Source: a bacterium (lineage in GTDB: Bacteria; Patescibacteriota; UBA1384; 2-12-FULL-50-11). Taken from it: a DNA stretch of 64,000 bases. The DNA lies in assembly GCA_021463485.1 (NCBI GenBank), contig JAJTYJ010000001.1, positions 65,378 to 129,377 on the forward strand. The letters are read 5' to 3'. Position numbers and translations under genes: made by a program. The notes beneath the pieces were generated by a model, which saw only the letters and a program-made list of their open reading frames with translations, did no database searches and was not told the origin of the DNA. Shown here piece after piece: positions 22,039 through 48,863 of this stretch. Position 1 is the first letter of the stretch. Every line of letters begins with the position of its first letter.

Positions 22039-22051
22039 ACAATATGCATAA

Positions 22052-25328: not shown

Positions 25329-26933
25329 CTACGGGGTGTAGCTCAGTTGGTAGAGTGCGCGGTTTGGGACCGTGAGGCCGGAGGTTCGAGCCCTCTCACC
25401 CCGACCAAATGTGACAGCTGATTTATCAGCGTCACGCATAACCTGATAAAACTTACTAATTTGGGTGTTCAAATAGCCAGGGTAGCTCCACGTGAGTCCA
25501 GAGGGGAAAATTGAACACAACAGCATTCTCTTCTGTTGGAGGTTGCTTGTCTCGTAAGTTTTGGCCAGGTCTTTGAACTTTTCGCGAATGAAAGTTGTGA
25601 CGTCTTCGATATTGTACTTGGTGATCAAGTCGTCGTTTTTCGTGACCTGAATAACTGTAATTTTCTCTTCCAGCAAGCGATTCTGCTCACGAAAGATATC
25701 GTCCGAGTATATCCCCGCTAAGTTCTTTTCAATGAGACTCTGACGCGTTTCATAGAGTTTGCGCAGCTCTTCATCGGCCTGTTCTCGTCGCTTTTGAAGC
25801 GTCGAAACACGGTGATAATAAGTTTTTCTCAAGAACGTACTGACCAAATCCAGCGCCTTAATAGACAAGCTGACATGTCGCAGCAGTTGTCGGGTTTCCG
25901 CTTCTACGTCCTCGACCGGAACCGATTTAGCCTTACTACACCATTTTTGACATAGGTAGTAAGCGAAGCGTTGTTTCTTGCCTTTCGACCACCCGGCAGT
26001 TAATGAGAAACCACAGCCACAACATTTGACGATCCGTCGCAACGGAAACTCCGGATTGTCCCGATTCTTTTTCGCCAACGGTTTGGCAATATTAACGTTT
26101 CGGCCATCCAGGATCGCTTGAACGCGATAAAATTGCTCTTCCGTCACCATCGGCGAGTGTTGGCCGGGTACTTCCTGGCCGTACTTTTTGGAAACAATCT
26201 TGCCGATATAGAATTTGTTGCGAAACATCCGCTGAATTGTTTGACCTTTGATTTTGAATTGCTTACCGGAGCGATAGCGAACTTTCAGATTTTTCTCGTC
26301 CAGAATCTTAGCCAGTTCGCGTAGTGATTTTGTCCCCGTTGCCATCAGATCCCAGGCATTCTTGAGCTCGTCGAACATAGCCGGATCTTTGACGACATAA
26401 CCGTTTTCATTCAAATAACCGATCGGGGTATAACTCATCGGCAACCCGGAGAGAAAACGTGCTCGCAGACCGTTTCTGGCTCGCTCGCCCCGCACATCAT
26501 TGTCCATTTGAGCAAATCCGGCGAGCATCGTTTCGACAAACTTTTCGGTCGGACTGTTACCGGTCGGCTCACTTGCGGAAATAAGGCCGATATCACACTC
26601 AGCCAATTTCTTCCGAATCACTAAGTAGTCGGCCGTTTGACGCGAAATCCGGTCAAGACGATAGACGATCACCGCATCGATTTCCTTTTTGTGCTTGCGG
26701 CAATACTCCAGCATTTTAATCAGCTCGGGCCGACCCTTGATCGTTTTGGCCGATCTTCCCTCTTCCCGAAATGTCTCGACAACCGTCATTTTTCGACGGG
26801 CCGCTTCTTTGAGGCAAATATCTTCCTGTGTCGCCAGCGAATAGTTTTCAACCTGCTCTTCGCTCGACACCCGAATGTACACAACTGCCCCGCCTGTTTT
26901 CTTTGGCGCTTTATCGAACACGGATTGATCCAT
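25329..26933 (-). CDS. Large serine recombinase (phage-integrase type)
   Basis: N-terminal resolvase catalytic domain (VVYIRVSSEEQ), recombinase domain, Cys-rich zinc ribbon (CCGCGF...YYLC), coiled-coil; the 3' end of the ORF reads antisense through tRNA-Pro. Confidence 0.85.
   Translation of the reverse strand: MDQSVFDKAPKKTGGAVVYIRVSSEEQVENYSLATQEDICLKEAARRKMTVVETFREEGRSAKTIKGRPELIKMLEYCRKHKKEIDAVIVYRLDRISRQTADYLVIRKKLAECDIGLISASEPTGNSPTEKFVETMLAGFAQMDNDVRGERARNGLRARFLSGLPMSYTPIGYLNENGYVVKDPAMFDELKNAWDLMATGTKSLRELAKILDEKNLKVRYRSGKQFKIKGQTIQRMFRNKFYIGKIVSKKYGQEVPGQHSPMVTEEQFYRVQAILDGRNVNIAKPLAKKNRDNPEFPLRRIVKCCGCGFSLTAGWSKGKKQRFAYYLCQKWCSKAKSVPVEDVEAETRQLLRHVSLSIKALDLVSTFLRKTYYHRVSTLQKRREQADEELRKLYETRQSLIEKNLAGIYSDDIFREQNRLLEEKITVIQVTKNDDLITKYNIEDVTTFIREKFKDLAKTYETSNLQQKRMLLCSIFPSGLTWSYPGYLNTQISKFYQVMRDADKSAVTFGRGERARTSGLTVPNRALYQLSYTP
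25332..25407 (+). tRNA. tRNA-Pro (anticodon TGG), CCA encoded
   Basis: CGGGGTGTAGCTCAGTTGGTAGAGT..anticodon loop TTTGGGA..GGTTCGAGCC..CACCCCGACCA. Confidence 0.8.
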
Positions 26934-26940
26934 ACTCCTC

Positions 26941-27270
26941 CTATCTATCCTGCAACAATCGTCGCAGGGTTAAGCCGTTAAATAACTCTTGTTCATACTC
27001 GTCCAACCATTCATCGAGCAGGTACTGAAACTGGGTTAAATAAACTGCCAGCTCATCGTCAGGAATCGTCTGAGCCAATTCTCCCAACATTCCTCTCGCT
27101 TTCTGGAGCTTGTTGTCTTCTTCCGACGTCGGAAACAACGAATTAAGCGACGATTCAAACGCTTTTCGCTGACTGAGAAGCGAATAGTCCAACACTCGTT
27201 CGTCGGCCATTTGTACCTCACCGGCAGTAGCCGTTTCTTGGTTTGTCTGTGCTTGTTCTGATGTGTCCAT
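26941..27270 (-). CDS. Hypothetical small acidic protein upstream of recombinase (possible accessory/directionality factor)
   Basis: 109 aa ORF co-oriented with, and 8 nt upstream of, the recombinase gene. Confidence 0.35.
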   Translation of the reverse strand: MDTSEQAQTNQETATAGEVQMADERVLDYSLLSQRKAFESSLNSLFPTSEEDNKLQKARGMLGELAQTIPDDELAVYLTQFQYLLDEWLDEYEQELFNGLTLRRLLQDR

Positions 27271-27452
27271 TTACCCTCCAAACTAGTACTATATACCTAG
27301 TTATACTAGGCTTATAAGCCTAGTGTCAAGAGGGAGTTCTATAGATATTGAACACTCGATTCCCTGCCAGTTAAGCGACGATTATCTGGGTACAAAAAGA
27401 CCCCGTCCCCACACAATTGCCGCTTAACTGTCGTGCAATCTCGCTTAGTGGA

Positions 27453-28088
27453 TCAGGGGACAGTGGGATCGCCAGTCAGAAAAATCCGAGGGTTAACAGG
27501 CAGCCGAAAGACTCTAATTTCAAAGTGAAGGTGGGGACCGGAAGATTGACCGGTATCGCCCATCATCCCTAAAAACGTGCCCATCTCGACCTCGTCATCA
27601 CGTTCAACGTTGAGAGAGTCCAAGTGCGCATACGTTGAAGAAAGTAGGTTGCCGTGATCAATAATCACGTGCGTTCCGAGTTCGCCGCGCGTATCGGCAT
27701 ACCTCACTTTACCTTTCATAAAGGCGTGAACCGGAGTCACCCCGATCCGTCCCTGCGGGTCAGCGATATCAATTCCGGTGTGAAATAAATAGAATGGCAA
27801 ATTTGGTTCTCCGAATTCCAGTGTGACAACACCATGCGCGGGCCAGATGCGGGGATCTTCAACCGTCTCAATCACGTCACCATTACCCGGGTTATGGATC
27901 TCAACGGCACCGGACTGGGCGTCATTGGTTGCTAAAGCATCGGAAACAACATTAAACCCGGCTTGGGTCAGGATAATAACTATAAATATAGGAATCAAAC
28001 AAATGATCCCGACCGTATAGAATACGAGCTTAACCTCACGTTTCATTGAGAACGCAGCGGCAAGTAGATTCAGGGTGTTGGGGCTCAT
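27453..28088 (-). CDS. M23 family metallopeptidase (T4SS-associated cell-wall hydrolase)
   Basis: N-terminal TM; HTGIDIA (HxxxD) and HLHFE (HxH) M23 motifs; 4-nt overlap with VirB4 gene. Confidence 0.8.
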   Translation of the reverse strand: MSPNTLNLLAAAFSMKREVKLVFYTVGIICLIPIFIVIILTQAGFNVVSDALATNDAQSGAVEIHNPGNGDVIETVEDPRIWPAHGVVTLEFGEPNLPFYLFHTGIDIADPQGRIGVTPVHAFMKGKVRYADTRGELGTHVIIDHGNLLSSTYAHLDSLNVERDDEVEMGTFLGMMGDTGQSSGPHLHFEIRVFRLPVNPRIFLTGDPTVP

Positions 28089-29872
28089 TGCTTAGGGCGA
28101 CGTTCGGATGGATCGGTTGTGATCAGCGGATGCTCGGATTCAGATGCAGTCACTTTGACGGCGACGTGGTGGTTGTTGGCGATAATTAGCGCTTCGCCAC
28201 GCTCGCAGGTTAACAGAAACCGTTGTTCATACTCGCTTAAGCGAAATTCAGAGGCTACATTCTTAATCGTGGTTGTGTCTTGGCGCATTAAGATACGCAG
28301 GGCGCTTTGCGAGGCAATGGCACGACCGTAAGCATTTTGTAAGAAGTCGCTGGCTTGCTGGGAAATAATACTGACCCCGAGATAATATTTCCGCGCTCGT
28401 CGTACCAATCCGGCGATAAATCTCGCCGATTCTTCGTGCTCGAGCATCAGCCAAGCTTCGTCAATGACCAGAATTCGCTTGGAGGGATCGGATTTAACCT
28501 GATTTTGGGTAAACTGAGCGACCACTAAGTGCATAATCTGCCGCAGCGACTCCGGCAGGTCTTTAGTGTCGAAAACGACTAAGCGGTTGGATAGCTCGAT
28601 GTTGGTTTGCGAATTGAATACTTCCGACAGCGAACCCTTGGTGTATTTTTCTAACCGCTGGCATAACTTCGTTTGTTTCAGCGTCTTTAGCTCTTTATGA
28701 AGATCCGAGAGTAAGGGATAAACATGACCTGGTTTCTTGGCCGTTTTCTTTTTTGTCCAACCAAATTTCCTATAGGTCGTCATAATCGCTTTGTCGACAA
28801 CTGACTTCTCTTCGGCGCTTAAACCGTCTGCCATCAAAGAAATGATTTCAGTCAGTGATTGAACGTGATCGGCGAAGCTATCAGCCTCGTTATAAGCATT
28901 AACCGATAAGTCAAACGGGTTAATCTTCTCTTTAGAGTGAACCGACAGCTTTATATACGTTCCCTTAACCGATTCGGCTAATTGCCGATATTCTCGCTCC
29001 GGATCGATAACAATAACCTTTGTGCCTTGCATTAAGTGGCGCAAAATCTCGACTTTGGCCGTGTAAGATTTACCGGCTCCGGATTGAGCAAAAAGAATAC
29101 TGTTCGCGTTTGGCAGACTGAACCGATCGAGAATAACCAGCGAGCTATTAGACTTATTAATTCCGTAAAGTACGCCCGATTCCTGAACTAATTCGGAAGA
29201 AATAAACGGGAAGGTCAGCGCTGCCGAGGAACTATCCAGATTACGCTTTTGGGCCAATTGATTGTCGCCGCGCGGTAAAACCGACTGTAAGCCGTCAAGC
29301 TGCTGGGACATCGCCGATTTGGTGTAAAAGAGCCGGGTTGCCAGTAACGTTTCGAGAACTTTGACGGTTTTATCCAGCTCAACCAACGAATCGGCTGAAA
29401 CGGTGATGTAAAGCGAAATCTGGAAGAGATTTTCCTGGCCACGCTGGATCTTATCGCGCAATTCAATGGCCGATTCCAGCGGATCAAGCAGCTCAGCGCC
29501 GATAATCCGGCCGGATCGCTCCATCGCCCGCTTAGTTGAAGTCATCTCCGTAATTTTCCGGTTCAGCTTCGGCAAAGCGAACGTTGCCTCGACCGGCTCG
29601 ATGTGGAAGGAAATATCGACGTTGTGGTTGAAGTTAATCAGGTGGTTCAGCCAGCCGCTCGAAGCGGTGTAGGGATAACCCGAAATATAGAGGGTGCGAA
29701 TATATCGGCCGTCGATAACAAGATGATTCGGCTGCTCTTCTAGGCCAGAATACGTAACAAAATCGAGCTGATCCTGCTCGCCGACGTGGGAGGATAGCTT
29801 CTGGCGACGCTCGTCGCGCTCTTTCTTCCAGACTTTATACCCGGCTTTAACTCTAGAGATAATTGGTGGCAT
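28085..29872 (-). CDS. VirB4/TrbE/CagE-family type IV secretion ATPase (ATPase portion)
   Basis: FAQSGAGKSYTA Walker A, ILVIDEAW Walker B, AAA_10-like length. Confidence 0.85.
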   Translation of the reverse strand: MPPIISRVKAGYKVWKKERDERRQKLSSHVGEQDQLDFVTYSGLEEQPNHLVIDGRYIRTLYISGYPYTASSGWLNHLINFNHNVDISFHIEPVEATFALPKLNRKITEMTSTKRAMERSGRIIGAELLDPLESAIELRDKIQRGQENLFQISLYITVSADSLVELDKTVKVLETLLATRLFYTKSAMSQQLDGLQSVLPRGDNQLAQKRNLDSSSAALTFPFISSELVQESGVLYGINKSNSSLVILDRFSLPNANSILFAQSGAGKSYTAKVEILRHLMQGTKVIVIDPEREYRQLAESVKGTYIKLSVHSKEKINPFDLSVNAYNEADSFADHVQSLTEIISLMADGLSAEEKSVVDKAIMTTYRKFGWTKKKTAKKPGHVYPLLSDLHKELKTLKQTKLCQRLEKYTKGSLSEVFNSQTNIELSNRLVVFDTKDLPESLRQIMHLVVAQFTQNQVKSDPSKRILVIDEAWLMLEHEESARFIAGLVRRARKYYLGVSIISQQASDFLQNAYGRAIASQSALRILMRQDTTTIKNVASEFRLSEYEQRFLLTCERGEALIIANNHHVAVKVTASESEHPLITTDPSERRPKQ

Positions 29873-30497
29873 TGGTGTGTTTGATTAGCTCCTGTGTTAA
29901 AGGCTGAATCTTCGCCTGTTCCGGCCGGTAAAAACCGTAGAACAAATCTAAAATCTCCAAACTCGACAGCGGCCGAGCGGTCATCCCGAGCTTTTCCAGA
30001 CCTTTCGCAACAATTTCCTGTTCCAAATGGAGCTGTTCCTTGACGAGTTTGAAGTCGGTGACGGTACGGCTCTCAAACGGAATAACGACATAAAACCGCC
30101 GCGACAGAATCTTGTTACCGGCGACCAGCTCGCGAATAAACTTGCCGTACTCTTCCATCTGCTTTTTGTAGATCGGCTGCTTCTCGTCAGCCCGTGCTGT
30201 TTGGAAATCCTCAATGTAGCGATCAACGTCGAGTTCGCGGATTCTGACTAATATCTGAACCGGTGTCGTTAAGGAGTTGAGAAACGACTGGAAGTTATCG
30301 ACGATGGCATCTTGTTCATCGGCACTCTGGAGTTCGAAATTGACCGAAGAAGTCGCTAAGACCGCCCGATAGCGGTTATCCGGCAGGATCAGAATATTAT
30401 CGCGAACGCCTTTAATCGCGATTTGATTGCGAGCGGAACCGTTAGTCTTTGATCGGCGTGATCGAAACATCGAGACCTCCTTTCTTGGCAACCTCAA
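29853..30497 (-). CDS. VirB4 N-terminal domain-like protein (likely the split-off N-terminus of VirB4)
   Basis: 214 aa; overlaps the VirB4 ATPase ORF by 20 nt in a different frame; combined length about 809 aa matches intact VirB4 homologs. Confidence 0.45.
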   Translation of the reverse strand: MRLPRKEVSMFRSRRSKTNGSARNQIAIKGVRDNILILPDNRYRAVLATSSVNFELQSADEQDAIVDNFQSFLNSLTTPVQILVRIRELDVDRYIEDFQTARADEKQPIYKKQMEEYGKFIRELVAGNKILSRRFYVVIPFESRTVTDFKLVKEQLHLEQEIVAKGLEKLGMTARPLSSLEILDLFYGFYRPEQAKIQPLTQELIKHTNATNYL

Positions 30498-30948
30498 ACG
30501 AAAGCGTTAATGAGGGGTTGGTTAATAATTGATTAACCCGCGTTTCATCGGTGAGCGGGATACTTGGCAACAGCGCCCTGGTTTTCTTCTTCGGCTCCTC
30601 GATGGTCACGGCTTGTTTCTTCGCTACTGCGATCTGTTCCCGGCCAGCTTCGTCGTTCTTCGTAAAGACATAGCGGCGCGGTCGTTTGGAATAACGAGAG
30701 TAGACCGATAGCCACTCGGCAACGATTTTGCCGTTAATCCGGATGCTTAAGCCGATAAAGACGAAGAACTCGAGCAAGATTAAAGAAAGCTTAAATGAGC
30801 CGAGGTGCATCTTCGGCGGAATAAGGACGTAGAAAACGGTGCCGATAATCAACGCTACGATCATCAGGAAGATTTGGGCGAACGTGAAGTTGCCAGCAAT
30901 GCGGTCTTCAACGGTCGTTATCTGGGCCGGAACGACGGTGGTCTTCAT
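30442..30948 (-). CDS. VirB3/PrgI-like small T4SS membrane protein
   Basis: 168 aa; two adjacent TM helices after a short N-terminal region; lies between the VirB6-like and VirB4 genes. Confidence 0.4.
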   Translation of the reverse strand: MKTTVVPAQITTVEDRIAGNFTFAQIFLMIVALIIGTVFYVLIPPKMHLGSFKLSLILLEFFVFIGLSIRINGKIVAEWLSVYSRYSKRPRRYVFTKNDEAGREQIAVAKKQAVTIEEPKKKTRALLPSIPLTDETRVNQLLTNPSLTLSFEVAKKGGLDVSITPIKD

Positions 30949-32228: not shown

Positions 32229-32233
32229 TTCTT

Positions 32234-32563: not shown

Positions 32564-32769
32564 ACATATCCTTTCTCCCCTCCGCAGTTGTAAATTAATA
32601 ATTAATTAACAGTCGAGTATGTTAATTTGCCTACGTAATATCACCTCTGGCATATGCTTGTCAAATATTTAGCTCTGAAAGCACTCTTTACTAGCATATG
32701 TTGTTTGTGGTAAACCTACCGTAAACAAGCACCATTCCGCTATCGGAGGGGTAATACGGAAGCAAGTTT

Positions 32770-37694: not shown

Positions 37695-37695
37695 A

Positions 37696-39236: not shown

Positions 39237-39247
39237 TCGATCTCTTT

Positions 39248-40378: not shown

Positions 40379-40497
40379 TTAGTTAGTTTGCATACCCTTA
40401 AGCTATATATACTATCTTAAGACTTAGTATACTTCTTGTCAAGCCATGCATACTAACTTTTTTGTCAATATAGTGCCGGCAATATGCAGAAATACTC

Positions 40498-41280: not shown

Positions 41281-43548
41281 ATGGAGCGGCTTGAATCCTC
41301 ACATTTTGGCGACCCTATTACTGCCGAGCTCTCGGAAGCACAACCGCTGGAACTGCCTGAAGAAGCGTTCGCTGAAACCGCGGTAGCCCAGCCGGAACAG
41401 CAACCCGAGCTGCCGACGGAACACCAATCCCCCGAACAAGCCTACCAAATGCTCCGCCGGGGCGGCGGTGACAAGGAAATTCTGGCTCGTTTCGAGCCGG
41501 ACCAGCAGAAGGATATCGAAGATAAGCAGAAAATTCTTTCATCGCTTGCCTATTTTATCGGCAAAGACTTCAAAATCCCGGTCAAACTGAACGAACCCGG
41601 CGCCGGATGGCACTGGGATTTCAAAGACAACATTATCAGGGTCGATCCGAAAGACCTGCTGGAAAAACCCATGGATTACCTGCGTTTCGTCATCTCGCAC
41701 GAAGGCGGCCATCGACGGATTTCCCGAACCGAGTTCATTCCGATGGACGTTTGGGCTCAACCAGGCTTCTCGATCATGATGAACTCGATCGAAGATCCGC
41801 GAATCAACAACTTCGTCGCCGAAAACTATCCGAAGTTCCGCGAGCAAATGCAGATGGCTTACCAGATGGAACTTGATCTCGAGAAAACAATGAAGGAGAA
41901 AGCGACCGAAGAACTCGGCCACCAACCGCGCTTCATTCAGGCAAGTTTTGAATACATCAAGCAGTGGCTGAAAGAGCAGAACGGGGGCTTCGGTGAAGTC
42001 AGCGAAGATCTGCCGGACGAGGTGAAAGAAGTCATCGCCAAAACGTTGCCTTCGGCTCAAGATTCCTGGTGGCGTTACCCCTCACGAAAAGAAGCCGACA
42101 GCAGCGAGAAAACTATCAGCAAGTACGCCCAAACGTCGTACGAGATAAATCGCGACGAAGTTTGGCCGGAATTCAAAAAACTCGTCGATCAGGACATTGA
42201 AGACGAGAAAATGGAACAGAAGATGCGGGACATGCAAAAGCAATCCGGCGAAGGCGGCGAGGGTGGAGAGCCCGGAGAAGGACAGCCGGACTTGCCGCAG
42301 GAACTCAAAGATCGGATGACGCCGGAGCAGCAACAGGAACTCCGAGACGCGCTTCAGCAAGCGATGGACAAAGCCCGCGAGCAGCAAGAGCAGCAACGGA
42401 GCCAGCAAACTGAAGGTGGAGCCCAAGAGAACGAACAGCAGGAACAAACGACTGCACCCGTCGATTTGGATTCGCTCAGCGAAGAAACCAAGCAAGCCGT
42501 TCGCGATTACATCGAAAGTCTGCCCGAAGAAGTCAAAGAAGAATTGGCCGAACGGGCTCGTCAGGCGCTTAAAGAATTCGAAGAAGCGGTCAACGAGGAA
42601 CTTCGCGGCAAACTAGTGCAAGAACCCGGCGAAGAAACCAAAGATAAAGCCAGAGGCGAGACACGGCGTTCCGACCGAACCGGTCGGGATGTTCCACCGG
42701 AGTACAAAGAGGAAATCGAAAGATATAAGGAATTGGTCGAGGGAACGCTCGAAAAAGACGCCAATGTTTACGAAGAAAAGCGCCGGGAAGTGTTGGAGAC
42801 GATCAACAAACTCGAAGATGACCTGCGGGCGATTTTCGTCGAGCGTCGGGCTCACATGTGGGAGGGCGGTCATCGCTCCGGCAAGCACATCGACATCAAA
42901 CGAAGAATCCAGGAAAAAGCCAAAGACATACCGGCCATGGAAAGCCGAGCTTGGGAACGTAGAGAAATGCCGCAAGAAAAAGATTACGCTTTTAGCCTGC
43001 TGGTCGACCTGTCCGGCTCAATGACGAGCGGCAACAAAATCGGCGAAACCTTCAAGGGCGCGATCGTTTTGTCGGAAGTGCTCAATCGCCTTTCGATCGA
43101 CAACGAGATTCTCGGCTTCAACGACCGTCTTCATGTTTTGAAGAGCTACGAAGAAGCGATGTCCGACGAAATCCGCGAGCGGATGGGCGGCATGCTCTCC
43201 GAAGTCAACTCGCCTCGAGCCCGCTACAACGACGACGGTTGGGCGCTCGAACAAGCTTCCGAGCGACTGGCCAAACAAAAAGCGGCGGAAAAGTTCTTGA
43301 TCCCGATGTCCGACGGTCAGCCGGAAGAGTCGCCGCAACACTCGAAAAAAGAGTGGGATCTGGAAAACGTCGTCGCCAAGATTCAAGAAGAGACCGATCA
43401 GAAGCTAATCGCTCTCGGTATTGGTCGCGGAACCGAACACGTCGCCCATTACTACCCCAACAGCCTGGCGAACGTCGACGTTAACGAAATGGCTGACAAA
43501 TTAGCCGACTTACTCAGGGAAGCGATTGAAAGATATGACCAGTTCTGA
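41281..43548 (+). CDS. vWA-domain protein with N-terminal HExxH zincin-like domain and E/Q-rich linker
   Basis: VISHEGGHRRISR (HExxH); C-terminal DLSGSMTSG MIDAS motif (DxSxS). Confidence 0.7.
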   Translation: MERLESSHFGDPITAELSEAQPLELPEEAFAETAVAQPEQQPELPTEHQSPEQAYQMLRRGGGDKEILARFEPDQQKDIEDKQKILSSLAYFIGKDFKIPVKLNEPGAGWHWDFKDNIIRVDPKDLLEKPMDYLRFVISHEGGHRRISRTEFIPMDVWAQPGFSIMMNSIEDPRINNFVAENYPKFREQMQMAYQMELDLEKTMKEKATEELGHQPRFIQASFEYIKQWLKEQNGGFGEVSEDLPDEVKEVIAKTLPSAQDSWWRYPSRKEADSSEKTISKYAQTSYEINRDEVWPEFKKLVDQDIEDEKMEQKMRDMQKQSGEGGEGGEPGEGQPDLPQELKDRMTPEQQQELRDALQQAMDKAREQQEQQRSQQTEGGAQENEQQEQTTAPVDLDSLSEETKQAVRDYIESLPEEVKEELAERARQALKEFEEAVNEELRGKLVQEPGEETKDKARGETRRSDRTGRDVPPEYKEEIERYKELVEGTLEKDANVYEEKRREVLETINKLEDDLRAIFVERRAHMWEGGHRSGKHIDIKRRIQEKAKDIPAMESRAWERREMPQEKDYAFSLLVDLSGSMTSGNKIGETFKGAIVLSEVLNRLSIDNEILGFNDRLHVLKSYEEAMSDEIRERMGGMLSEVNSPRARYNDDGWALEQASERLAKQKAAEKFLIPMSDGQPEESPQHSKKEWDLENVVAKIQEETDQKLIALGIGRGTEHVAHYYPNSLANVDVNEMADKLADLLREAIERYDQF

Positions 43549-43990
43549 CTTAATTAAAGATATGGCAATTGATGAGCAATCCTTTAACGAATTCATTGAG
43601 ATCTCCGGTTTTTCCAAGGAAGTGCCGCTGATCATTGCCGAAGACGAAGACGAGCTTCATCAATATCGCGCCCAGCTGCAAAAGGCCGGTTATGAAGAAC
43701 AAGAATCGGTTTATCACCTCGTTCAGGCTTCCCACAAAGGTTCGAAGAATTACCTGGTACTCGACGGTCACCATCCGTTCACTTTAAAGCAGGCCTACGA
43801 CTTCGTTGTTCAGTACCCGACCGGCCAAATTGAAGTTTCCGACCAGGTGACGATGCAGAAAGCGATTTTCTCGCCCAATTATAAAGAAAACCGAACCGTT
43901 CTGTTGGTAACCAAGCGAGAGCTGGCCGAAATCCAGAAAACCGGTTTAACGTTCTTGTCCCGAGTCGGGGCAACCTATCAACATGCCTGA
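43526..43990 (+). CDS. Hypothetical protein (possible vWA-MoxR-associated protein; DGHH motif)
   Basis: 154 aa ORF overlapping both neighbours (operon-coupled); contains YLVLDGHHPFTL. Confidence 0.4.
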   Translation: MKDMTSSDLIKDMAIDEQSFNEFIEISGFSKEVPLIIAEDEDELHQYRAQLQKAGYEEQESVYHLVQASHKGSKNYLVLDGHHPFTLKQAYDFVVQYPTGQIEVSDQVTMQKAIFSPNYKENRTVLLVTKRELAEIQKTGLTFLSRVGATYQHA

Positions 43991-46082
43991 ACCAGGATCA
44001 CCGGAACACCAGCCAGACATGGAGGCGGAGGCGCAAGCCGAAGTCGTCGCTCCCGACGTTGAAACCGAACAACCGGCCGGCCCGATCGCCGAAACGGAGA
44101 ACAGCGTTTCCTATCTCGGCGTGGAGCTGAAAAAAGCCGAAGCGGAAAAGAGCCAATTCGTGCCGGATCGAGAACACTATAAAGATTACATTAACGACCA
44201 ATTCTCGCTCGAGCTTCAGCAGAAGCTGGCCGTCAGTTTTCTCCAAGGCGAGCCGATGCTCTTGGAAGGCGGCACCAGTATCGGTAAGACGACGACCGTT
44301 CGAAAGATGGCTTCCGAACTCAATTGGGAAGTCCACTACGTCAACTTAAACGGCGCCAGCGACGTTGAAGACTTGATGGGCCGTTACATCCCCAACCCTC
44401 ACCGCCAGATGATCGGGGATCCCGAATACATCTTCGCCGACGGCAAAGTCACGTCCGGCTTGCGCCTGGAAGAGGGCAAGCAGAAAGTCGTCATTCTTGA
44501 TGAGCTGAACGCCGCCCCGCCGAACATTTTAATTCGTCTCCACGAAGTACTCGACGCCTTGGAGCGGGGCACTGAAGTGGTCTTGTCGGAAGACGCGTCC
44601 GAGGCCGTCAGGGTTAATCGCGAGCAGACCAAAGTCGTCGGACTGATGAACCCGCCGGGCAAAGGTTATTTTGCTCGTGAACCGCTCGACCCGGCTCAGC
44701 TTCGTCGCTGGAACTATCAGAAAGAGGCCTCGACACTGCCTGACGAGACGTTCGCGCACGCTACCGACGTTCTCTTCGGCTTGGCTACGGAAATGGATCC
44801 TAACGCCGTACCGCAAGAATCCTATTTAACGACTCGCGATCAGCGGCTAATGCCCGAGCAGTTGGCCGAGATCCCCGGCATTCAAGAAGTGCTCGGCAAA
44901 TACAAAGAATTTCATAAAGCGGCCAAAGAAATGGTCAATAATCGCACGGTTGCCGCCGATCAGCCGCAGCGCTTTACCTACGACGATCGCATGGAGCCGA
45001 GAAGGGTCAAAGAATTCGTTCAACAGTTCTACAACGGCGACATTAATGAAACTTTCCAAAAAGCTCTTCAGTATTACTACTCGAATAAAGTTGAGAGCAA
45101 ACAAGATAAACAAAAACTCGACGAGCTGATCAAACACGTCGCCTACGTACCGCAAGAGGCGACGCAACGTCGCGGTGCCGAACGTGAAGCGCCCGACGGT
45201 GCGGCAGCAACCGCCGCGCCGGACACCCGTATTCCGGAAACAATTACGCCGCTCTCTGGAGAGCTGCTTGAACAAGTCACGGAGGCGCAGAGAATTCTCG
45301 GTGCCGAAAACGTTGTCTCGCCGGACAAAGTTCGGGAAATCCTGGGCCTTAAGATTGATCTTGAGAAAGTTCCGGCCATTCCGTTCTCCAAAGAAGAACT
45401 CGAGCGAGCCAAGGAACTCGGCCAGTTTCTCGTTTATCGCCACGACAGAGATGATCGTGCACGCCACTTGACGATGGAACGACTTCAGGAACTCCTGCAA
45501 CCGAAGTTCGATAAAGAAGACGACGGCAAAGTTCTCTACGATACCAGTTGGTACAAGAACGAAGACTTCTTCACGAAAGAAGCGATGCGTTCAGGCTGGG
45601 CGTTGACCAGCCGAGAAGTCATTCCGGATTCGACCAGCAAGAACTATCTCCAGCAGACTGGTGAAATAGCGACCTATCTCGGCACGAAAGTCATGAAAGA
45701 AATCGCCGATCCGAAATTACGCGCTGAATACGGCGAAGCGATCAAAGAATACGAAGTTAAACGAGTAGCAATTGAGAAAATTATTGACTCAGACTGGAAA
45801 GAAGCCGCCAAACAATTGGAAGAACTGAAGCTTAATAAGCTCTTCCGCCAAACGCTGGTCGAAGCGATGTACGATACCGCCATGTACCTCGAGAACCGAC
45901 CGAAAAGCGAACGAGACGACGCTCGTTTGTTGGAAGACATGTACGGCTGGACCAATCGGCGTTCGTCCGATGGCCACCTGGTGTATGCCGGTGCATTCCA
46001 CGCCTACGGCCTGCACGTGGACGACGATCGCCCGGGCCGCGCGCCTTCCGATGTCGGTGTCGTCCTCTCCCGCAATCGCTAG
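43983..46082 (+). CDS. MoxR/AAA_5-type AAA+ ATPase with C-terminal lectin-like DGR target domain
   Basis: GGTSIGKTT Walker A, VVILDELN Walker B, MNPP sensor; C-terminal 40 aa encoded by the DGR variable repeat. Confidence 0.75.
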   Translation: MPEPGSPEHQPDMEAEAQAEVVAPDVETEQPAGPIAETENSVSYLGVELKKAEAEKSQFVPDREHYKDYINDQFSLELQQKLAVSFLQGEPMLLEGGTSIGKTTTVRKMASELNWEVHYVNLNGASDVEDLMGRYIPNPHRQMIGDPEYIFADGKVTSGLRLEEGKQKVVILDELNAAPPNILIRLHEVLDALERGTEVVLSEDASEAVRVNREQTKVVGLMNPPGKGYFAREPLDPAQLRRWNYQKEASTLPDETFAHATDVLFGLATEMDPNAVPQESYLTTRDQRLMPEQLAEIPGIQEVLGKYKEFHKAAKEMVNNRTVAADQPQRFTYDDRMEPRRVKEFVQQFYNGDINETFQKALQYYYSNKVESKQDKQKLDELIKHVAYVPQEATQRRGAEREAPDGAAATAAPDTRIPETITPLSGELLEQVTEAQRILGAENVVSPDKVREILGLKIDLEKVPAIPFSKEELERAKELGQFLVYRHDRDDRARHLTMERLQELLQPKFDKEDDGKVLYDTSWYKNEDFFTKEAMRSGWALTSREVIPDSTSKNYLQQTGEIATYLGTKVMKEIADPKLRAEYGEAIKEYEVKRVAIEKIIDSDWKEAAKQLEELKLNKLFRQTLVEAMYDTAMYLENRPKSERDDARLLEDMYGWTNRRSSDGHLVYAGAFHAYGLHVDDDRPGRAPSDVGVVLSRNR
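45959..46079 (+). repeat. DGR variable repeat (VR) at the 3' end of the target gene
   Basis: About 120 nt that align with the template repeat at 46376-46497; nearly all mismatches lie where the template repeat has A. Confidence 0.8.
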
Positions 46083-46375
46083 TCTCGGACCTTGGCTCTT
46101 GGGCCCTTGGATTTATCGGCCGCCGGCGAAGCCGGCTCGCGCGAATTTTTGTAAATCAGCCCTCCCCCTCTTTAATTCCTTTGTAACATATGCTAAAATT
46201 CACCTGCCAATGAGGCTGCGTTCACGGACTCAGCCCGGCCGAATAGTAAGAAGATTGCTTGCGTTTTACTGGCGCGGGTGGCAAAACTTTTGCCTGCCGC
46301 CGCATTGTTATACGGGCACGGTCTCTATTTCTTAGTGCATCGGTGCCGCTGACTGAATTGGGAAAACGCAAAGGA

Positions 46376-46497
46376 GCGTTCGTCCAATGGCAACCTGGTG
46401 TATGCCGGTGAATTCAACGCCAACGGCCTGAACGTGGACAACGATAACCCGGACAACACGAATTCCGATATCGGTGTCGTCTTCTCCCGAAATCTCA
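46376..46497 (+). repeat. DGR template repeat (TR)
   Basis: Intergenic A-rich copy of the VR; encodes NPDNTNSDIGVV, a lectin-type consensus; lies between the target gene and avd/RT. Confidence 0.8.
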
Positions 46498-46553
46498 CGC
46501 TATTCACAAAGCTTAGTCTCAGCTCACCGGCTGAGATTTCGCTTAACGTTCGG

Positions 46554-46934
46554 TTAATTATTAGCGTTTAAGCTCTGAACGGATTTAATCCAACCGCCGA
46601 GCATTCGACCGATTTCCTGCAAAATTTCTTGTAAGTGGATATAAGCTTTCCGGTCGACAGCGCGAAGATCGTAAGCCAACCGAATGAAGACCTTAACCGT
46701 TTCGAGCTGAAGACTGGCGTTCTTGAGGTGATTCTCTTTGTCGCTGCCGGAAGTTTCACAAGCGGCGAGCAGGCATTTGAGTAGGTCCAGAGTTTCGTCC
46801 TGAAGGGTTTGGCCGGTCGCATAGCGTTCAATCTTGGGAAAACGCTGAACTTGTAGGTGCAGAAGTCTGTAAAAATCATAAGTTTTCTGGGTAATCGGCA
46901 CGCCGCCCAGCAATTGTTGAGAAAGAATTTCCAT
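46554..46934 (-). CDS. avd: DGR accessory variability determinant (Avd; four-helix-bundle family)
   Basis: About 127 aa from Met 46934; FPKIERYATGQTL...LQEILQEIGRMLGGWIKS matches the Avd/23S-IVS four-helix-bundle pattern. Confidence 0.65.
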   Translation of the reverse strand: MEILSQQLLGGVPITQKTYDFYRLLHLQVQRFPKIERYATGQTLQDETLDLLKCLLAACETSGSDKENHLKNASLQLETVKVFIRLAYDLRAVDRKAYIHLQEILQEIGRMLGGWIKSVQSLNANN

Positions 46935-46995
46935 TAAGAAACTATTACTACACGAAGGAAGCTTTGACCAGGTTGTCTCAGTCGACAACCTCTTT

Positions 46996-47964
46996 TTGGC
47001 GTGGAAAAATTACCGCCGAGGCAAGCGGAAGAAAGAGGACATTCAGCTTTTCGAGTATCGCTTAGAAGACAACGTCTTCGCTTTGCACCGGGATTTAATT
47101 GACGGAACCTATAGCCCCGGCAGTTACCAGCAGTTCCGTATCACTGATCCGAAGTTGCGTCTGATCAGTAAGGCCAGCGTCAGGGACCGACTCGTTCACC
47201 AGGCGATCTACCAGATTCTTTACCCCCTGTACGACATGACCTTTATTTCCGATTCGTACGCCTGTCGGAAAGACATGGGAACGCATCGAGCGTTTCGCGA
47301 ACTGGTCGACCACGCTCGCCGAGTCAGCAAAAACTACACGGCTCCTTGTTGGGCTATTAAGATGGATATTAAAAAGTTCTTTGACAGTGTTAACCACGAA
47401 ATTCTCAAGAAAATATTAAGAGAACGAATCGGCGACCATCGACTGTTACAGTTGCTCGATCAAATCATCGACAGTTTCGATGTCACGCCCGGGAACGGCA
47501 TGCCGCTCGGCAATCTGACTAGCCAATTGTTCGCCAACGTCTACATGGATCCGTTAGATAAGTTCGTCAAACATAAGCTCAACGCGTCGCACTATCTGCG
47601 ATACGCCGACGATTTTCTATTGCTAGGGCAAAATCCGGAAGAGCTGATCGGCTACTTCGTGGAAATTACCCGATTCTTACGTGAACGGCTGGACTTAAAC
47701 GTTCACCCGACTAAATCGACGCTTCGGAAACTCAATTGGGGAATCGATTTCGTCGGCTACGTCGCCCGGCCGCATCACAGCGTTCCGCGAGCGCGAACCG
47801 TTCGTCGGATTGATCGAATTTTAACAAGGCACATGAGGGACGATCCGGATAAGATTAAATACAGCGTCCCGTCGTATATCGGTTACCTTTGCCACGTGCG
47901 CAGCCAAAAGCTGATTAAACATTTGGTCGGTATCGCTGCGGCTGCTGACAAGGGTGGTACTTAA
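46996..47964 (+). CDS. DGR reverse transcriptase
   Basis: RYADDFLLLG (YxDD box), PLGNLTSQLFANVYM ([IL]GxxxSQ DGR hallmark), 322 aa. Confidence 0.9.
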   Translation: MAWKNYRRGKRKKEDIQLFEYRLEDNVFALHRDLIDGTYSPGSYQQFRITDPKLRLISKASVRDRLVHQAIYQILYPLYDMTFISDSYACRKDMGTHRAFRELVDHARRVSKNYTAPCWAIKMDIKKFFDSVNHEILKKILRERIGDHRLLQLLDQIIDSFDVTPGNGMPLGNLTSQLFANVYMDPLDKFVKHKLNASHYLRYADDFLLLGQNPEELIGYFVEITRFLRERLDLNVHPTKSTLRKLNWGIDFVGYVARPHHSVPRARTVRRIDRILTRHMRDDPDKIKYSVPSYIGYLCHVRSQKLIKHLVGIAAAADKGGT

Positions 47965-48098: not shown

Positions 48099-48181
48099 TA
48101 TTCTTTACTATCATATAAAGCCGCTTCTGATAACAAACGCCTCTATTGTAGGGTCATGACATTACAGGTTAGAATCAATCT

Positions 48182-48394
48182 ATGAATGAGCAAGAGCTAA
48201 AAAAAGTCTTTCTAAATCCTTTTTACGCTATCCAATTTGCTCCGTATCTGACGAGTGAGCACGAACCAATGGTCTCAAAAGAGGAGTGGATTGCCGCTAA
48301 CATCAAGCTTATGGACGAACTGGGCAAAGAAGAGTGGCTTCGACAGTTGTTAGAAGTGCTTGAATCGAGCAACCCACCGTCAGCCGAAAAGTAG
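48182..48394 (+). CDS. Hypothetical small protein
   Basis: 70 aa ORF. Confidence 0.3.
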   Translation: MNEQELKKVFLNPFYAIQFAPYLTSEHEPMVSKEEWIAANIKLMDELGKEEWLRQLLEVLESSNPPSAEK

Positions 48395-48461
48395 TAGCTA
48401 GTATCTATTTACTGGGCTTATAATACTATACGTGTGATACAAAAATGGCTATGATACGACC

Positions 48462-48680
48462 ATGAAAAATCAGAACTCCGCGAAAATCCGTAAAGAGCTT
48501 GGCGAAAAGATCCGCAAAGCCCGCGAGAAAGCCAAGCTCACCCAAGCCGATGTCGCTAAAGCGGCCGATATTGATGTAACTTACTTTTCTCGGATCGAGC
48601 GCGGCGAAGCCAATCCCTCCTACGAAATTCTCCACAACATCCTATCAATCCTTAAGGTAGACTCCTTCAAGATTAAGTAG
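48462..48680 (+). CDS. XRE-family HTH transcriptional regulator
   Basis: LGEKIRKAREKAKLTQADVAKAADIDVTYFSRIERGEANPS matches the HTH_3 pattern. Confidence 0.7.
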   Translation: MKNQNSAKIRKELGEKIRKAREKAKLTQADVAKAADIDVTYFSRIERGEANPSYEILHNILSILKVDSFKIK

Positions 48681-48863
48681 TCTCCTCCTGGTACACTTTC
48701 ATTATCTGGTCAACCCATGACAAAAGGTGTTCTAAACAAGTTGCATTAGGGCGACAGTATTGGCGAGAACCAGGTTCGATTTCGACGGAACGAAGTGGAG
48801 GAGAAACCCTGAGCGAAGCGAAGGTATGCCTCTCACCCCGACGGTATTACCGAGAACCAGGTT

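What the first reader, a model, noticed from the sequence alone, without database searches (positions are those of the whole stretch)
25332..48845. About 23.5 kb integrated conjugative/mobilizable element at tRNA-Pro(TGG) with an att-like terminal repeat
tRNA-Pro(TGG) (25332-25407) abuts a large serine recombinase whose 3' end reads antisense through the tRNA. The cargo is a compact Gram-positive-type T4SS (M23 hydrolase, VirB4, VirB3-like, VirB6-like, VirB2-like pilin, VirD4 T4CP), a Replic_Relax-like protein, a resolvase fragment, Fic, the channel operon, the vWA-MoxR-DGR unit and an XRE regulator. At 48829-48842 there is a 14-nt exact copy of the tRNA-Pro 3' end (cctctcaccccgac), preceded by a degenerate aggttcga T-loop-like stretch. 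Such a copy is unlikely by chance in 64 kb and is consistent with an attR. Housekeeping genes (dsbB, ZIP transporter) resume immediately after.
Basis: partly seen in the sequence, partly recalled or inferred. Interest (0 to 1): 0.7.

Follow-up and report, generated by a model that had tools for sequence, protein, structure and literature searches.

The report
Conjugative island in a CPR bacterium
A 23.35-kb mobile island carrying a conjugation-type secretion system sits at the end of a proline tRNA gene in an ultra-small (Patescibacteria) bacterium, placed there by a serine recombinase whose own gene is cut and re-tailed each time the island integrates.

Summary
tRNA-Pro(TGG) is at 25332-25407, and the exact 14-mer occurs at 25392-25405 and 48829-48842. 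A large serine recombinase (LSR) ORF reads antisense through the tRNA.

The closest genome (BroJett034, flanks about 94% identical) has a clean empty site. There tRNA-Pro runs straight into dsbB, so about 23.4 kb is an insertion.

The 14-mer is probably not the attR. Four independent related copies elsewhere, like the window's, end at ...GCATTAGGGCGAC (one at ...TGTGCGAC; a sixth, more divergent end finishes ...GGGCAC). In the window this end is at 48755, and the next 21 nt equal the empty-site flank. The element is therefore 25406-48755 (23,350 bp), with only CGAC shared between attP and attB, as expected for an LSR. The 14-mer lies in an extra 87-bp partial duplicate of the target site.

The element has a Patescibacteria-type T4SS, a VirD4-like coupling protein, a MobC-type (Replic_Relax) relaxase, defence cargo, a DGR and a terminal XRE gene.

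It belongs to a family of more than 1,000 CPR recombinases inserted at tRNA 3' ends (Pro, Gln, Leu, Phe). Some members lack the T4SS.

The LSR gene spans attP. Its last 26 codons, conserved at protein level, lie at the far end of the integrated element. Excision and transfer are inferred, not shown.

The parts
25332..25407 (+). tRNA-Pro(TGG). Its 3' end is the left half of the chromosomal target (attB) and now forms attL.
   Evidence: ARAGORN and Rfam. The sequence is identical to the tRNA of the empty site in L001 up to ...CCCCGAC.
25402..25405 (.). attL junction. CGAC is the only sequence shared by the reconstructed attP and attB, so the 2-bp crossover must lie within it.
   Evidence: Comparison of attL, attR and the empty site. 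The same junction ...CCCCGAC|CA(A/T)ATGTGACAG is seen in L054, L055, L102 and L194.
25406..25440 (.). Element left end (P' arm). It supplies C75-A76 of the tRNA's CCA and contains the inverted repeat GTGACAGCTGAT-TT-ATCAGCGTCAC (25411-25435).
   Evidence: Read directly from the sequence. L001 has GAC|AG, so no CCA is encoded there.
25329..26933 (-). Large serine recombinase, integrated-state ORF of 534 aa. The family-conserved part ends at ..TFG (25404). The last ~25 codons are antisense tRNA.
   Evidence: Pfam; PHROG integrase 4.7e-79. Catalytic-region residues Y19, R21, S23 and Q27 are invariant in 23 homologs. Homolog tails.
26941..27270 (-). Small ORF (109 aa) conserved directly upstream of the recombinase gene across the family. 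Candidate accessory or directionality factor.
   Evidence: Alignment with L054, L055, L195, L197 and L198 and presence in L209. No Pfam or PHROG hit.
27453..32563 (-). T4SS operon:
- M23 peptidase, 27453-28088
- VirB4, 28085-29872
- TrsD/TraC-like protein, 29853-30497
- PrgI/VirB3, 30442-30948
- VirB6/TrbL-like protein with an N-terminal pilin domain, 30945-32228
- VirB2-like pilin, 32234-32563
   Evidence: Pfam and precomputed PF26593 TraC-like. The composition matches the Patescibacteria T4SS described in PMC12102498.
32770..35358 (+). VirD4-type coupling protein (T4CP), 862 aa.
   Evidence: Pfam TrwB_AAD_bind, T4SS-DNA_transf and TraG-D_C.
35411..36151 (+). Replic_Relax (PF13814) protein, the putative MobC-type relaxase, immediately after the T4CP gene.
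   Evidence: Pfam 1.3e-13. PF13814 is recognised by CONJscan as MobC (PMC5357655). The protein is retained in the T4SS-less ~7-kb relative L198.
36176..36816 (-). Resolvase N-terminal fragment (108 aa) and a DUF3768 protein.
   Evidence: Pfam.
37077..41145 (.). Cargo block with low GC: an unknown 205-aa protein, an ion channel, AbiTii/AbiTi, SoFic-type Fic, and an unknown 215-aa protein.
   Evidence: Pfam, PADLOC, GC profile.
41281..47964 (.). vWA protein, a 154-aa ORF, and a MoxR-like AAA_5 protein whose 3' end is the DGR variable repeat (45959-46077). Also the template repeat (46376-46494), bAvd (46554-46988, - strand) and the reverse transcriptase (46996-47964, + strand).
   Evidence: Pfam. 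TR/VR alignment with adenine-specific mismatches.
48182..48680 (+). Right-end module: a conserved 70-aa ORF (48182-48394) and the XRE regulator (48462-48680).
   Evidence: Pfam. XRE homologs sit at the far end from the recombinase in L193, L194, L198 and L208.
48673..48755 (-). Element right end (P arm). It is also the detached last 26 codons plus stop of the recombinase gene as it would read in the excised circle: ..RPNATCLEHLLSWVDQIMKVYQEETT*.
   Evidence: The sequence is conserved in six independent right ends and conservation stops at the terminus...GCGAC in five...GGGCAC in L208. Nucleotide differences by codon position are 60/27/86, and a Ser codon switches TCA<->AGC.
48753..48755 (.). 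attR junction (GAC) used by the recombinase.
   Evidence: The next 21 nt equal the empty-site flank.
48756..48776 (.). Chromosomal flank copy B'1, AGTATTGGCGAGAACCAGGTT. It is 21/21 identical to the sequence that follows the tRNA in the empty site.
48777..48863 (.). Together they form a tandem pseudo-attB of unknown origin.
   Evidence: A homologous module is present in L194. No Rfam hit and no significant RNA fold.

Best explanation
Window 25406-48755 (23,350 bp) is an integrative, probably conjugative element (ICE) of a Patescibacteria/CPR bacterium.

Integration. A large serine recombinase (LSR) encoded at the element's left edge recombined a circular form with the 3' end of tRNA-Pro(TGG). 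The attP site reads ...GCATTAGGGCGAC|CAAATGTGACAG... and the attB site reads ...CACCCCGAC|AGTATTGG.... The crossover lies inside the shared CGAC, at tRNA positions 71-74. The element's left arm replaces the tRNA trailer and supplies the CA of CCA, so the tRNA stays intact.

The recombinase gene spans attP. In the circle it would encode 536 aa ending in a conserved peptide, ..LEHLLSWVDQIMKVY... Integration moves those last 26 codons 23 kb away, next to the convergent XRE gene, and replaces them with about 25 codons of antisense tRNA. Integrated and excised states therefore make different recombinases. I infer this acts as a state-dependent control of recombination or of protein stability. A conserved small ORF upstream of the LSR gene may act with it as an accessory or directionality factor.

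Transfer (inferred). After excision, the MobC-type Replic_Relax protein would nick the element. The adjacent VirD4-like coupling protein would hand the DNA to the Patescibacteria-type (MPF_FATA-related) T4SS, made of VirB4, TrsD, PrgI, VirB6-like protein, pilins and the M23 hydrolase.

Cargo. The element carries AbiT and SoFic defence genes, an ion channel, and a DGR that diversifies a MoxR-like ATPase linked to a vWA protein.

Shown: the insertion, its ends, the family and its tRNA targets, and the split reading frame. Inferred: excision, conjugation, and the role of the C-terminal swap.
For: Empty site.
- In BroJett034 (L001; RNase Y 98% aa, flanks 93-95% nt) tRNA-Pro(tgg) and tRNA-Gly(tcc) are 2.5 kb apart. 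In the window they are 25.9 kb apart.
- The junction alignment is clean.
- Five more distant relatives also show the short spacing.

Ends.
- The same attL junction, tRNA-Pro ...CCCCGAC|CA(A/T)ATGTGACAG plus the LSR, occurs at four other, different tRNA-Pro genes: CGG in L054 and L102, TGG in L055, GGG in L194.
- The right ends of L193, L194 (two copies) and L198 share the XRE gene (absent at L194's second, remnant copy) and a ~75-nt arm ending ...GCGAC, then diverge.
- L208 shares the XRE gene and the conserved antisense peptide, but its arm ends ...GGGCAC.
- L054 and L193 are the two ends of one 24.5-kb contig. It has a 99%-identical LSR, an XRE protein 83% identical to the window's and different cargo.

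Family.
- 1,070 clusters match at E<=1e-20, and the top 120 are all >=59% identical.
- Nearly all of their C-terminal tails translate antisense tRNA.
- Targets include tRNA-Gln, tRNA-Leu and tRNA-Phe.
- Small T4SS-less members keep the LSR, the small ORF, Replic_Relax and XRE (L198).

Split gene.
- Across the reconstructed attP the LSR frame stays open for 23-37 codons in six independent copies.
- All six carry the conserved motif [LF]EH[LI]L[SQ]WxDQ[IL][MV][KQ]x[YF].
- Differences by codon position are 60/27/86, and a Ser codon switches TCA<->AGC.
- Conservation begins exactly at the junction.

Conjugation genes. Pfam. PF13814 equals MobC, and the combination of VirD4, a MobC relaxase and a serine integrase is known from streptococcal IMEs.

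Composition. The element differs from its flanks.
Against: - No excised circle or attP junction was found.
- No transfer has been observed.
- Published work treats Patescibacteria T4SSs as chromosomal, relaxase-poor and co-opted for epibiotic growth rather than conjugation (PMC12102498; PMC12857230).
- A VirB4 96% identical at the protein level sits in other genomes with XRE directly next to M23 and no recombinase (L200-L207).
- No VirB8-like component was recognised.
- The function of the swapped C-terminus is untested, and conservation rests on six sequences.
- The 87-bp pseudo-attB is unexplained. It is open in the LSR frame, so a junction at the 14-mer cannot be strictly excluded for this copy.
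Confidence: 0.8

Rival explanations
1. The element is 23,437 bp and is bounded by the 14-bp direct repeat (attL 25392-25405, attR 48829-48842). Recombination takes place within a 14-bp common core at the tRNA 3' end.
For: - BLAST places the breakpoint against the empty site exactly on the 14-mer.
- The repeat is far beyond chance.
- The 87 bp between the two candidate ends is a multiple of three and open in the recombinase frame.
Against: - Four independent related right ends stop at ...GCGAC and carry no tRNA-like 14-mer there.
- The 21 nt after 48755 match the empty-site flank 21/21, better than the 18/21 match after the 14-mer.
- There is no tyrosine integrase in the element.
- Serine recombinases use a 2-bp crossover and do not need long identity (established knowledge).
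Confidence: 0.1
2. The island is mobile through its recombinase, but its T4SS is not a conjugation machine. It is the Patescibacteria host-interaction or uptake T4SS carried as cargo (a 'symbiosis island'). The island spreads by other means, or only rarely.
For: - T4SS genes of this type are essential for epibiotic growth in Southlakia and are reported as mostly relaxase-less and chromosomal.
- A near-identical VirB4 cluster exists without any recombinase in L200-L207.
- No VirB8 homolog was detected.
Against: - The T4CP and a MobC-type PF13814 protein are adjacent and lie inside the element.
- Minimal relatives keep the recombinase, Replic_Relax and XRE but not the T4SS. This is the ICE/IME pattern expected if Replic_Relax processes DNA for transfer.
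- The closest relative has no T4SS at this site.
Confidence: 0.3
3. The region is ancestral chromosome that was deleted in BroJett034 and the other relatives. It is not an insertion.
For: A presence/absence difference alone cannot give direction.
Against: - The same recombinase, P' arm and P arm ends occur at other tRNA genes in other genomes with different cargo.
- Six relatives, including distant ones, have the short tRNA-Pro to tRNA-Gly spacing.
- The region's composition differs from the flanks.
Confidence: 0.02
4. The region is a prophage.
For: The recombinase matches a PHROG integrase family, and the XRE protein resembles phage repressors.
Against: - No capsid, portal, terminase or tail genes appear in Pfam or PHROGs.
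- The one 'terminase' hit is the VirB4-like N-domain protein, at 1.5e-08 over 96 residues.
- A T4SS operon is present instead.
Confidence: 0.02

Closest known systems
ICEs and IMEs of Firmicutes with serine integrases, in particular streptococcal IME_Class_8 (VirD4 CP + MobC/PF13814 relaxase + serine integrase; Coluzzi et al. 2017, PMC5357655)
   Same: - A large serine recombinase at one edge.
- A VirD4-type coupling protein next to a PF13814 (MobC) relaxase.
- An MPF_FATA-related T4SS in the full-size version.
- Families that mix T4SS-bearing and T4SS-less members.
   Different: - The host is a CPR/Patescibacteria bacterium.
- The target is the 3' end of a tRNA gene. To my knowledge tRNA genes are the usual territory of tyrosine integrases; I did not test this here.
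- The recombinase ORF crosses attP.
- The T4SS has VirB2-like pilins and TrsD, as in other Patescibacteria.
Patescibacteria T4SS as described by Quinonero-Coronel et al. 2025 (PMC12102498) and Wang et al. 2023 (PMC10633639)
   Same: The same component set is present: VirB4, a TrsD/TraC-like protein, PrgI/VirB3, VirB6 and VirB2-like pilins.
   Different: In those papers the system is chromosomal, often near dnaA, usually without a relaxase, and interpreted as co-opted. The words recombinase, integrase and tRNA do not occur in the paper. Here the same kind of cluster lies inside a delimited mobile element, with a T4CP and a MobC-type protein alongside. The closest relative has no cluster at this site.
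Phage Mx8 IntP/IntX (attP inside the int coding sequence; integration gives int a new 3' end; PMC6070905)
   Same: - attP lies near the 3' end of the integrase gene.
- Integration at a chromosomal site swaps the C-terminus.
- The prophage state and the free state therefore encode different enzymes.
   Different: Mx8 Int is a tyrosine recombinase of a myxophage. Here the enzyme is a large serine recombinase on a T4SS element, and the new tail is antisense tRNA.
Archaeal 'suicidal' SSV1/pTN3/pT26-2 integrases (att site within the int gene; PMC8371274)
   Same: The target-matching site lies inside the recombinase gene, the target is a tRNA gene, and the gene is partitioned on integration.
   Different: - Those are tyrosine recombinases.
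- They are split into two inactive halves.
- They are stated to be exclusive to archaea.
- Here only the last ~26 codons are detached and all recognised domains stay intact.
Characterised large serine integrases (A118/LI, TP901-1, phiC31, Bxb1)
   Same: - Domain order: resolvase, recombinase domain, then zinc ribbon with a coiled coil.
- Very short identity between attP and attB.
   Different: - Target type.
- attP lies inside the gene.
- A conserved partner ORF sits directly upstream.
- No experimental data exist for this family.

Membership tests
Integrative and conjugative element (ICE) | Discrete integrated DNA with defined ends, absent from an otherwise syntenic relative | tested here: met
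   Empty site in L001 and short tRNA-Pro to tRNA-Gly spacing in five further relatives.
Integrative and conjugative element (ICE) | Own site-specific recombinase | tested here: met
   LSR at 25329-26933.
Integrative and conjugative element (ICE) | Mating-pair-formation T4SS with VirB4 | tested here: met
   VirB4, TrsD-like protein, PrgI, VirB6-like protein, pilins and M23. No VirB8-like protein was recognised.
Integrative and conjugative element (ICE) | Coupling protein and relaxase | tested here: met
   T4CP Pfam hits and PF13814 at 51.9 bits (cutoff 25.3). PF13814 is equated with MobC in PMC5357655. Catalytic activity was not tested.
Integrative and conjugative element (ICE) | Excision to a circle and transfer to a recipient | not testable with these tools
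   Pattern scans for an attP junction found none. Reads and experiments are needed.
Large serine recombinase integrase | N-terminal resolvase catalytic domain with the serine nucleophile, plus recombinase and zinc-ribbon domains | tested here: met
   Pfam. The ..Y19xR21V22S23..Q27 motif is invariant in 23 homologs. PDB matches to A118 and TP901-1 integrase domains.
Large serine recombinase integrase | attP and attB share only a short core around a 2-bp crossover | tested here: met
   Only CGAC is common to the reconstructed attP and the L001 attB.
tRNA-inserted island with a tyrosine integrase and a long att core (implied by the 14-mer reading) | Tyrosine recombinase gene in the element | tested here: not met
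   No Phage_integrase-type hit in any ORF of 100 aa or more.
tRNA-inserted island with a tyrosine integrase and a long att core (implied by the 14-mer reading) | Element ends coincide with the direct repeat | tested here: not met
   The conserved right end stops at 48755, 74 nt before the repeat starts.
Patescibacteria-clade T4SS | VirB4 with TrsD, PrgI/VirB3, VirB6 and VirB2-like pilins | tested here: met
   Pfam and precomputed families, compared with the description in PMC12102498. VirB4 phylogeny was not run.
Diversity-generating retroelement | RT plus Avd plus a TR/VR pair differing only at TR adenines | tested here: met
Integrases whose gene contains attP (Mx8-type / archaeal suicidal type) | The reading frame continues across attP and is altered by integration | tested here: met
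   Open, conserved frame across six reconstructed junctions. Integrated tails are antisense tRNA.
Integrases whose gene contains attP (Mx8-type / archaeal suicidal type) | Tyrosine recombinase chemistry | tested here: not met
   The enzyme is a serine recombinase. It works like these systems but is not a member.

The most novel reading that the evidence does not exclude
A phylum-wide family of CPR serine integrases carries attP inside its own coding sequence. Integration into a tRNA 3' end exchanges a conserved C-terminal helix for tRNA-antisense residues. This swap would act as a built-in switch that sets recombination direction or enzyme stability according to whether the element is free or integrated. 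It would be the first such case for serine recombinases. In addition, the 'essential chromosomal' Patescibacteria T4SS would be, at least in part of the phylum, the transfer machine of these still-mobile elements, with Replic_Relax proteins as the missing relaxases.
Probability: 0.35. Interest if true: 0.85.

Novelty: new variant of a known kind. Interest (0 to 1): 0.66.

Why it matters
Three points make this more than a routine island call.

1. The recent literature held here describes the T4SS of Patescibacteria as chromosomal, lacking relaxases and repurposed. It does not mention recombinases or tRNA insertion. This window shows the same kind of T4SS inside a cleanly delimited mobile element, together with a coupling protein and a MobC-type protein. 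The closest relative has a clean empty site there. The open question of what these T4SSs do can therefore be tested with concrete att sites, a candidate relaxase and candidate donor and recipient genomes.

2. The recombinase belongs to a very large, compact CPR family that targets tRNA 3' ends with a 4-bp core. Its attP, attB, attL and attR can be written down directly. That is useful for genetics in organisms that have almost no tools, and as a source of new serine integrases.

3. The recombinase gene crosses attP. This arrangement is documented for tyrosine integrases (Mx8 and the archaeal 'suicidal' integrases, the latter stated to be archaea-only). To my knowledge, and in the papers searched here, it has not been described for serine integrases.

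Tried and rejected
- Excised form. I scanned viral contigs and metagenome contigs for CGACCAWATGTGACAG. Of 135 stretches only one (L102) was a real relative, and it was another attL.
- P0062. Its tail (..LLEHISSILKMG..) looked like a possible attP-state protein. The 2.8-kb contig ends too soon to tell.
- IMG/VR search with a family alignment. It gave one relative (L209), integrated at tRNA-Phe and not a circle.
- The 52-nt module beside the 14-mer. It has no Rfam match at E<=5, and its RNA fold is no better than shuffles (z +0.35). The idea that it is simply a decayed copy of the tRNA was set aside because it resembles the L194 module much more than it resembles the tRNA.
- Tyrosine integrase, DDE transposase or phage structural genes as alternative drivers. 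None were found in the element.
- PDB sequence search for the role of the C-terminal peptide. Solved LSR structures do not align to that region.
- Dyad symmetry. I looked by eye for symmetry in attP around CGAC and found nothing convincing. The attB flank GGCGAGAACC is an inverted copy of the T-arm GGTTCGAGCC, but I did not test this statistically.

Full report
**1. The observation**

ARAGORN and Rfam place tRNA-Pro(TGG) at 25332-25407. The 14-mer CCTCTCACCCCGAC occurs exactly twice in the window, at 25392-25405 and 48829-48842 on the same strand, and does not extend further. It covers the T-stem 3' strand, the acceptor 3' strand, the discriminator and C74.

The ORF 25329-26933(-) is a large serine recombinase (LSR) with Resolvase and Recombinase domains and a weak zinc-ribbon hit. 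Its last ~25 codons are the antisense of the entire tRNA.

- the T4SS genes and the T4CP
- Replic_Relax and the resolvase fragment
- Fic and the ion channel
- the vWA protein and the AAA_5 ATPase
- bAvd, the reverse transcriptase and XRE
- DsbB and ZIP directly to the right

The DGR is real. TR is 46376-46494 and VR is 45959-46077, at the 3' end of the AAA_5 gene, and every mismatch falls at a TR adenine. The element also differs in composition from its surroundings. Tetranucleotide distance to the flanks is 0.26 inside and 0.156 outside (p=2e-5), and GC is 0.491 against 0.473 with a mosaic profile.

**2. Empty-site test**

I scanned one genome per species with the neighbouring RNase Y. The window is from a Patescibacteria (CPR) bacterium. 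The closest genome is 'Patescibacteria group bacterium BroJett034' (L001), with RNase Y 98% identical and flanks 93-95% identical at the nucleotide level.

In L001, tRNA-Pro(tgg) and tRNA-Gly(tcc) are 2.5 kb apart. In the window they are 25.9 kb apart. Five more distant relatives also show a spacing of 1-3 kb. The three-way alignment shows that the L001 site equals the left side of the window's attL joined to the right side of its attR. About 23.4 kb is therefore an insertion relative to all of these genomes.

**3. Where the element really ends**

BLAST puts the breakpoint on the 14-mer, but the junction is ambiguous. The 24 nt at 48753-48776 (GAC AGTATTGGCGAGAACCAGGTT) are identical to what follows the tRNA in L001. 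The sequence after the 14-mer (GGTATTACCGAGAACCAGGTT) matches only 18/21.

Independent copies of the element settle the question.
- A 24.5-kb NCBI contig has the same recombinase (99% identical) at one end, next to tRNA-Pro(CGG) (L054). At the other end it has an XRE gene whose product is 83% identical to the window's (L193). Its cargo is different.
- A decayed copy next to tRNA-Pro(GGG) has a truncated recombinase, the XRE gene and two right-end copies (L194).
- A roughly 7-kb relative lies next to another tRNA-Pro(GGG) (L198).

All four of these right ends (L194 carries two) and the window share an arm of about 75 nt after the XRE stop (L194's second copy is a remnant with no XRE gene beside it). 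The arm ends ...GCATTAGGGCGAC (...TGTGCGAC in L198), and the sequences diverge immediately afterwards. A sixth, more divergent end (L208) finishes ...GGGCAC. All left ends read tRNA...CCCCGAC|CA(A/T)ATGTGACAG.

The element is therefore 25406-48755 (23,350 bp). The reconstructed attP (...GGGCGAC|CAAATG...) and attB (...CCCCGAC|AGTATT...) share only CGAC. That is the short core expected of a serine recombinase rather than a 14-bp core. The element's left arm also supplies the CA that completes an encoded CCA; L001 has GAC|AG.

This stretch consists of a 52-nt module, the 14-mer and a second copy of the flank, which together form a tandem pseudo-attB. Its origin is unexplained. A homologous module follows the right end in L194. 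It has no Rfam match and no significant fold.

**4. A large family**

The recombinase has 1,070 cluster-level relatives at E<=1e-20, and the best 120 are all at least 59% identical. Their lengths vary from 495 to 600 aa because the tails differ. After a conserved ..SPFYxxILxxQxxxVxFG, almost every tail is a translation of antisense tRNA (..GxRT..). The FG codons (TTTGGN) contain TGG, the complement of CCA.

Contexts I fetched show insertion at tRNA-Pro (TGG, CGG, GGG), tRNA-Gln(CTG), tRNA-Leu(TAA) and tRNA-Phe(GAA).

A 109-121-aa ORF with a strongly conserved C-terminal half always sits directly upstream of the recombinase gene. It has no family match. I regard it as a candidate accessory or directionality factor.

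The backbone is: tRNA | LSR - small ORF - [T4SS, optional] - T4CP/Replic_Relax - cargo - XRE | flank.
- L198 keeps the LSR, the small ORF, Replic_Relax and XRE but has no T4SS.
- L195 (about 10 kb, at tRNA-Gln) carries metabolic cargo and no T4SS.

This is the ICE/IME spectrum known from Firmicutes.

**5. The recombinase gene spans attP**

Joining the right end to the left end as in a circle keeps the recombinase frame open. In six independent right ends the continuation reads as follows:
- window: GRPNATCLEHLLSWVDQIMKVYQEETT*
- L193: ..CFEHLLSWVDQIMKVYIEEETT*
- L194a: ..SCLEHLLSWVDQIMKVYVEEETT*
- L194b: ..DCFEHLLSWADQIMQSYL*
- L198: GRTSDSYLEHILSWIDQIMQVYKADDQDII*
- L208: ..SFEHLLQWLDQLVKCFDRGDD..*

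Over the 15-codon core, pairwise differences by codon position are 60/27/86, and one serine switches between TCA and AGC. Conservation starts exactly at the junction. This is the pattern of a coding sequence, not of a protein-binding site or a terminator. The stop of the extension (48673-48675) overlaps the end of the convergent XRE gene.

The circle would therefore encode a 536-aa enzyme with a conserved C-terminal peptide. The integrated element encodes a 534-aa enzyme whose tail is arbitrary tRNA antisense. I infer a state-dependent control of direction, activity or stability, but nothing here tests it.

Precedents are tyrosine enzymes. In Mx8 Int, attP lies in int and integration creates a new 3' end (PMC6070905). 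[quoted passage not shown]

**6. Transfer functions and the literature**

The operon 27453-32563(-) encodes M23, VirB4, a TrsD/TraC-like protein, PrgI/VirB3, a VirB6/TrbL-like protein with a pilin domain, and a VirB2-like pilin. The divergent genes encode a VirD4-type T4CP and a PF13814 Replic_Relax protein.

PF13814 is the domain that CONJscan calls MobC. Streptococcal IME_Class_8 combines VirD4, a MobC relaxase and a serine integrase (PMC5357655).

[quoted passage not shown] The words recombinase, integrase and tRNA do not occur in it (PMC12102498). A 2025 review repeats the essential, non-conjugative view.

The present element shows that at least some of these T4SSs are carried on mobile DNA together with a coupling protein and a relaxase-type protein. 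There is a counterweight. In L200-L207 a VirB4 96% identical at the protein level sits with XRE directly next to M23. No recombinase lies between them and housekeeping genes lie upstream. That gene order is what the circular form would give if the recombinase module were lost, so fixed chromosomal versions may derive from such elements. Equally, the T4SS may serve host interaction in both settings.

**7. Cargo**

The cargo comprises AbiTii/AbiTi and a SoFic-type Fic protein (PADLOC), an ion channel, two unknown proteins, and the vWA / MoxR-like ATPase / DGR unit. There are no virion genes, so this is not a prophage.

**8. Verdict**

The att assignment needs correcting: the junction is at CGAC, with attR at 48753-48755, and the 14-mer belongs to a neighbouring pseudo-attB.

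Shown:
- the insertion and its ends
- the family and its tRNA targets
- the split reading frame
- the gene content

Inferred:
- excision and conjugative transfer
- the role of the small ORF
- the function of the C-terminal swap

No excised form was found in the collections I could scan.

Noticed in passing
window 48756-48863: 87 bp absent from the closest genome: a second copy of the tRNA's last 14 nt plus the 21-nt flank, preceded by a 52-nt module. A homologous module (..GATTTCGAxCGAACGAAGT..GAGCGAAGCGxAGG..) follows the element's right end in L194. The 87 bp equal 29 codons and are open in the recombinase frame. Origin unknown.
   Followed up: partly
L002 about 19300-19650 (- strand), downstream of tRNA-Phe(GAA): Two units of 64 and 78 nt each end in a copy of the tRNA-Phe 3' end (..CCTTCGGCACA). 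They fold into strong hairpins that pair that copy with an upstream complement (z -5.6 and -3.5), so they look like acceptor/T-arm minihelices. They share the GAGCGAAGCGAAG motif with the window's module.
   Followed up: partly
L200-L207 (JGI 33000726xx/729xx samples): An XRE homolog lies 100 nt from a convergent M23-VirB4-TraC-like cluster. VirB4 is 96% identical at the protein level to the window's but only ~80% at the nucleotide level. There is no recombinase or small ORF in between, and LeuRS lies upstream. This looks like a recombinase-less, fixed version of the T4SS module in the circularly permuted order.
   Followed up: partly
L055 (NCBI JAXOUH010026476.1, 1-15508): A related element (LSR 86% identical) sits at a different tRNA-Pro(TGG). 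Beyond RNase Y, HU and tRNA-Arg, the inverted tRNA-Pro(CGG) is followed by DUF192, the MGMT-like gene and tRNA-Gly. In the window these genes lie on the far side of the element. This order is what an inversion between the two inverted tRNA-Pro sites would give.
   Followed up: no
L054 versus window 25332-35549: The recombinase and the small ORF are 99% identical at the protein level between two elements. The adjacent T4SS genes are only 84% identical at the nucleotide level, the T4CP 72%, and the cargo is unrelated. The recombination module has been exchanged between elements recently.
   Followed up: partly
window 24007-25281: Two tandem paralogous genes (223 and 200 aa) share nearly identical first ~30 residues (M-x-LNEIHNPSEHASVSLK...) and have no family match. 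This stretch is far more diverged from BroJett034 than the rest of the flank (partly unalignable; 84% against ~94%). L055 has four such genes here.
   Followed up: no
window 43983-46082: The DGR target is the C-terminus of a MoxR-like AAA_5 ATPase encoded next to a vWA/CobT_C protein. This is an unusual partner for a DGR variable region. I did not compare it with known DGR target classes.
   Followed up: no
window 36176-36502: An ORF of 108 aa that is only the N-terminal catalytic part of a serine recombinase (Resolvase, profile positions 1-89 of 145), followed by a DUF3768 gene. It could be a remnant of another element or a small regulator. The pair is also present in the same-strain contigs L052 and L053.
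   Followed up: no
L209 (IMGVR_UViG_3300022555_000211): A family member (LSR 59% identical, with the conserved small ORF) is inserted at tRNA-Phe(GAA) on a contig classed as viral. Large ORFs that I did not annotate lie on the other side of the tRNA.
   Followed up: no
window 15245-25407: A dense tRNA neighbourhood: eight tRNA genes in 10 kb, including all three tRNA-Pro isoacceptors. The cgg and ggg genes (21560-21712, - strand) are inverted relative to the occupied tgg gene. Relatives of this element use tRNA-Pro(CGG) and tRNA-Pro(GGG) genes as targets in other genomes, but here both are unoccupied.
   Followed up: partly
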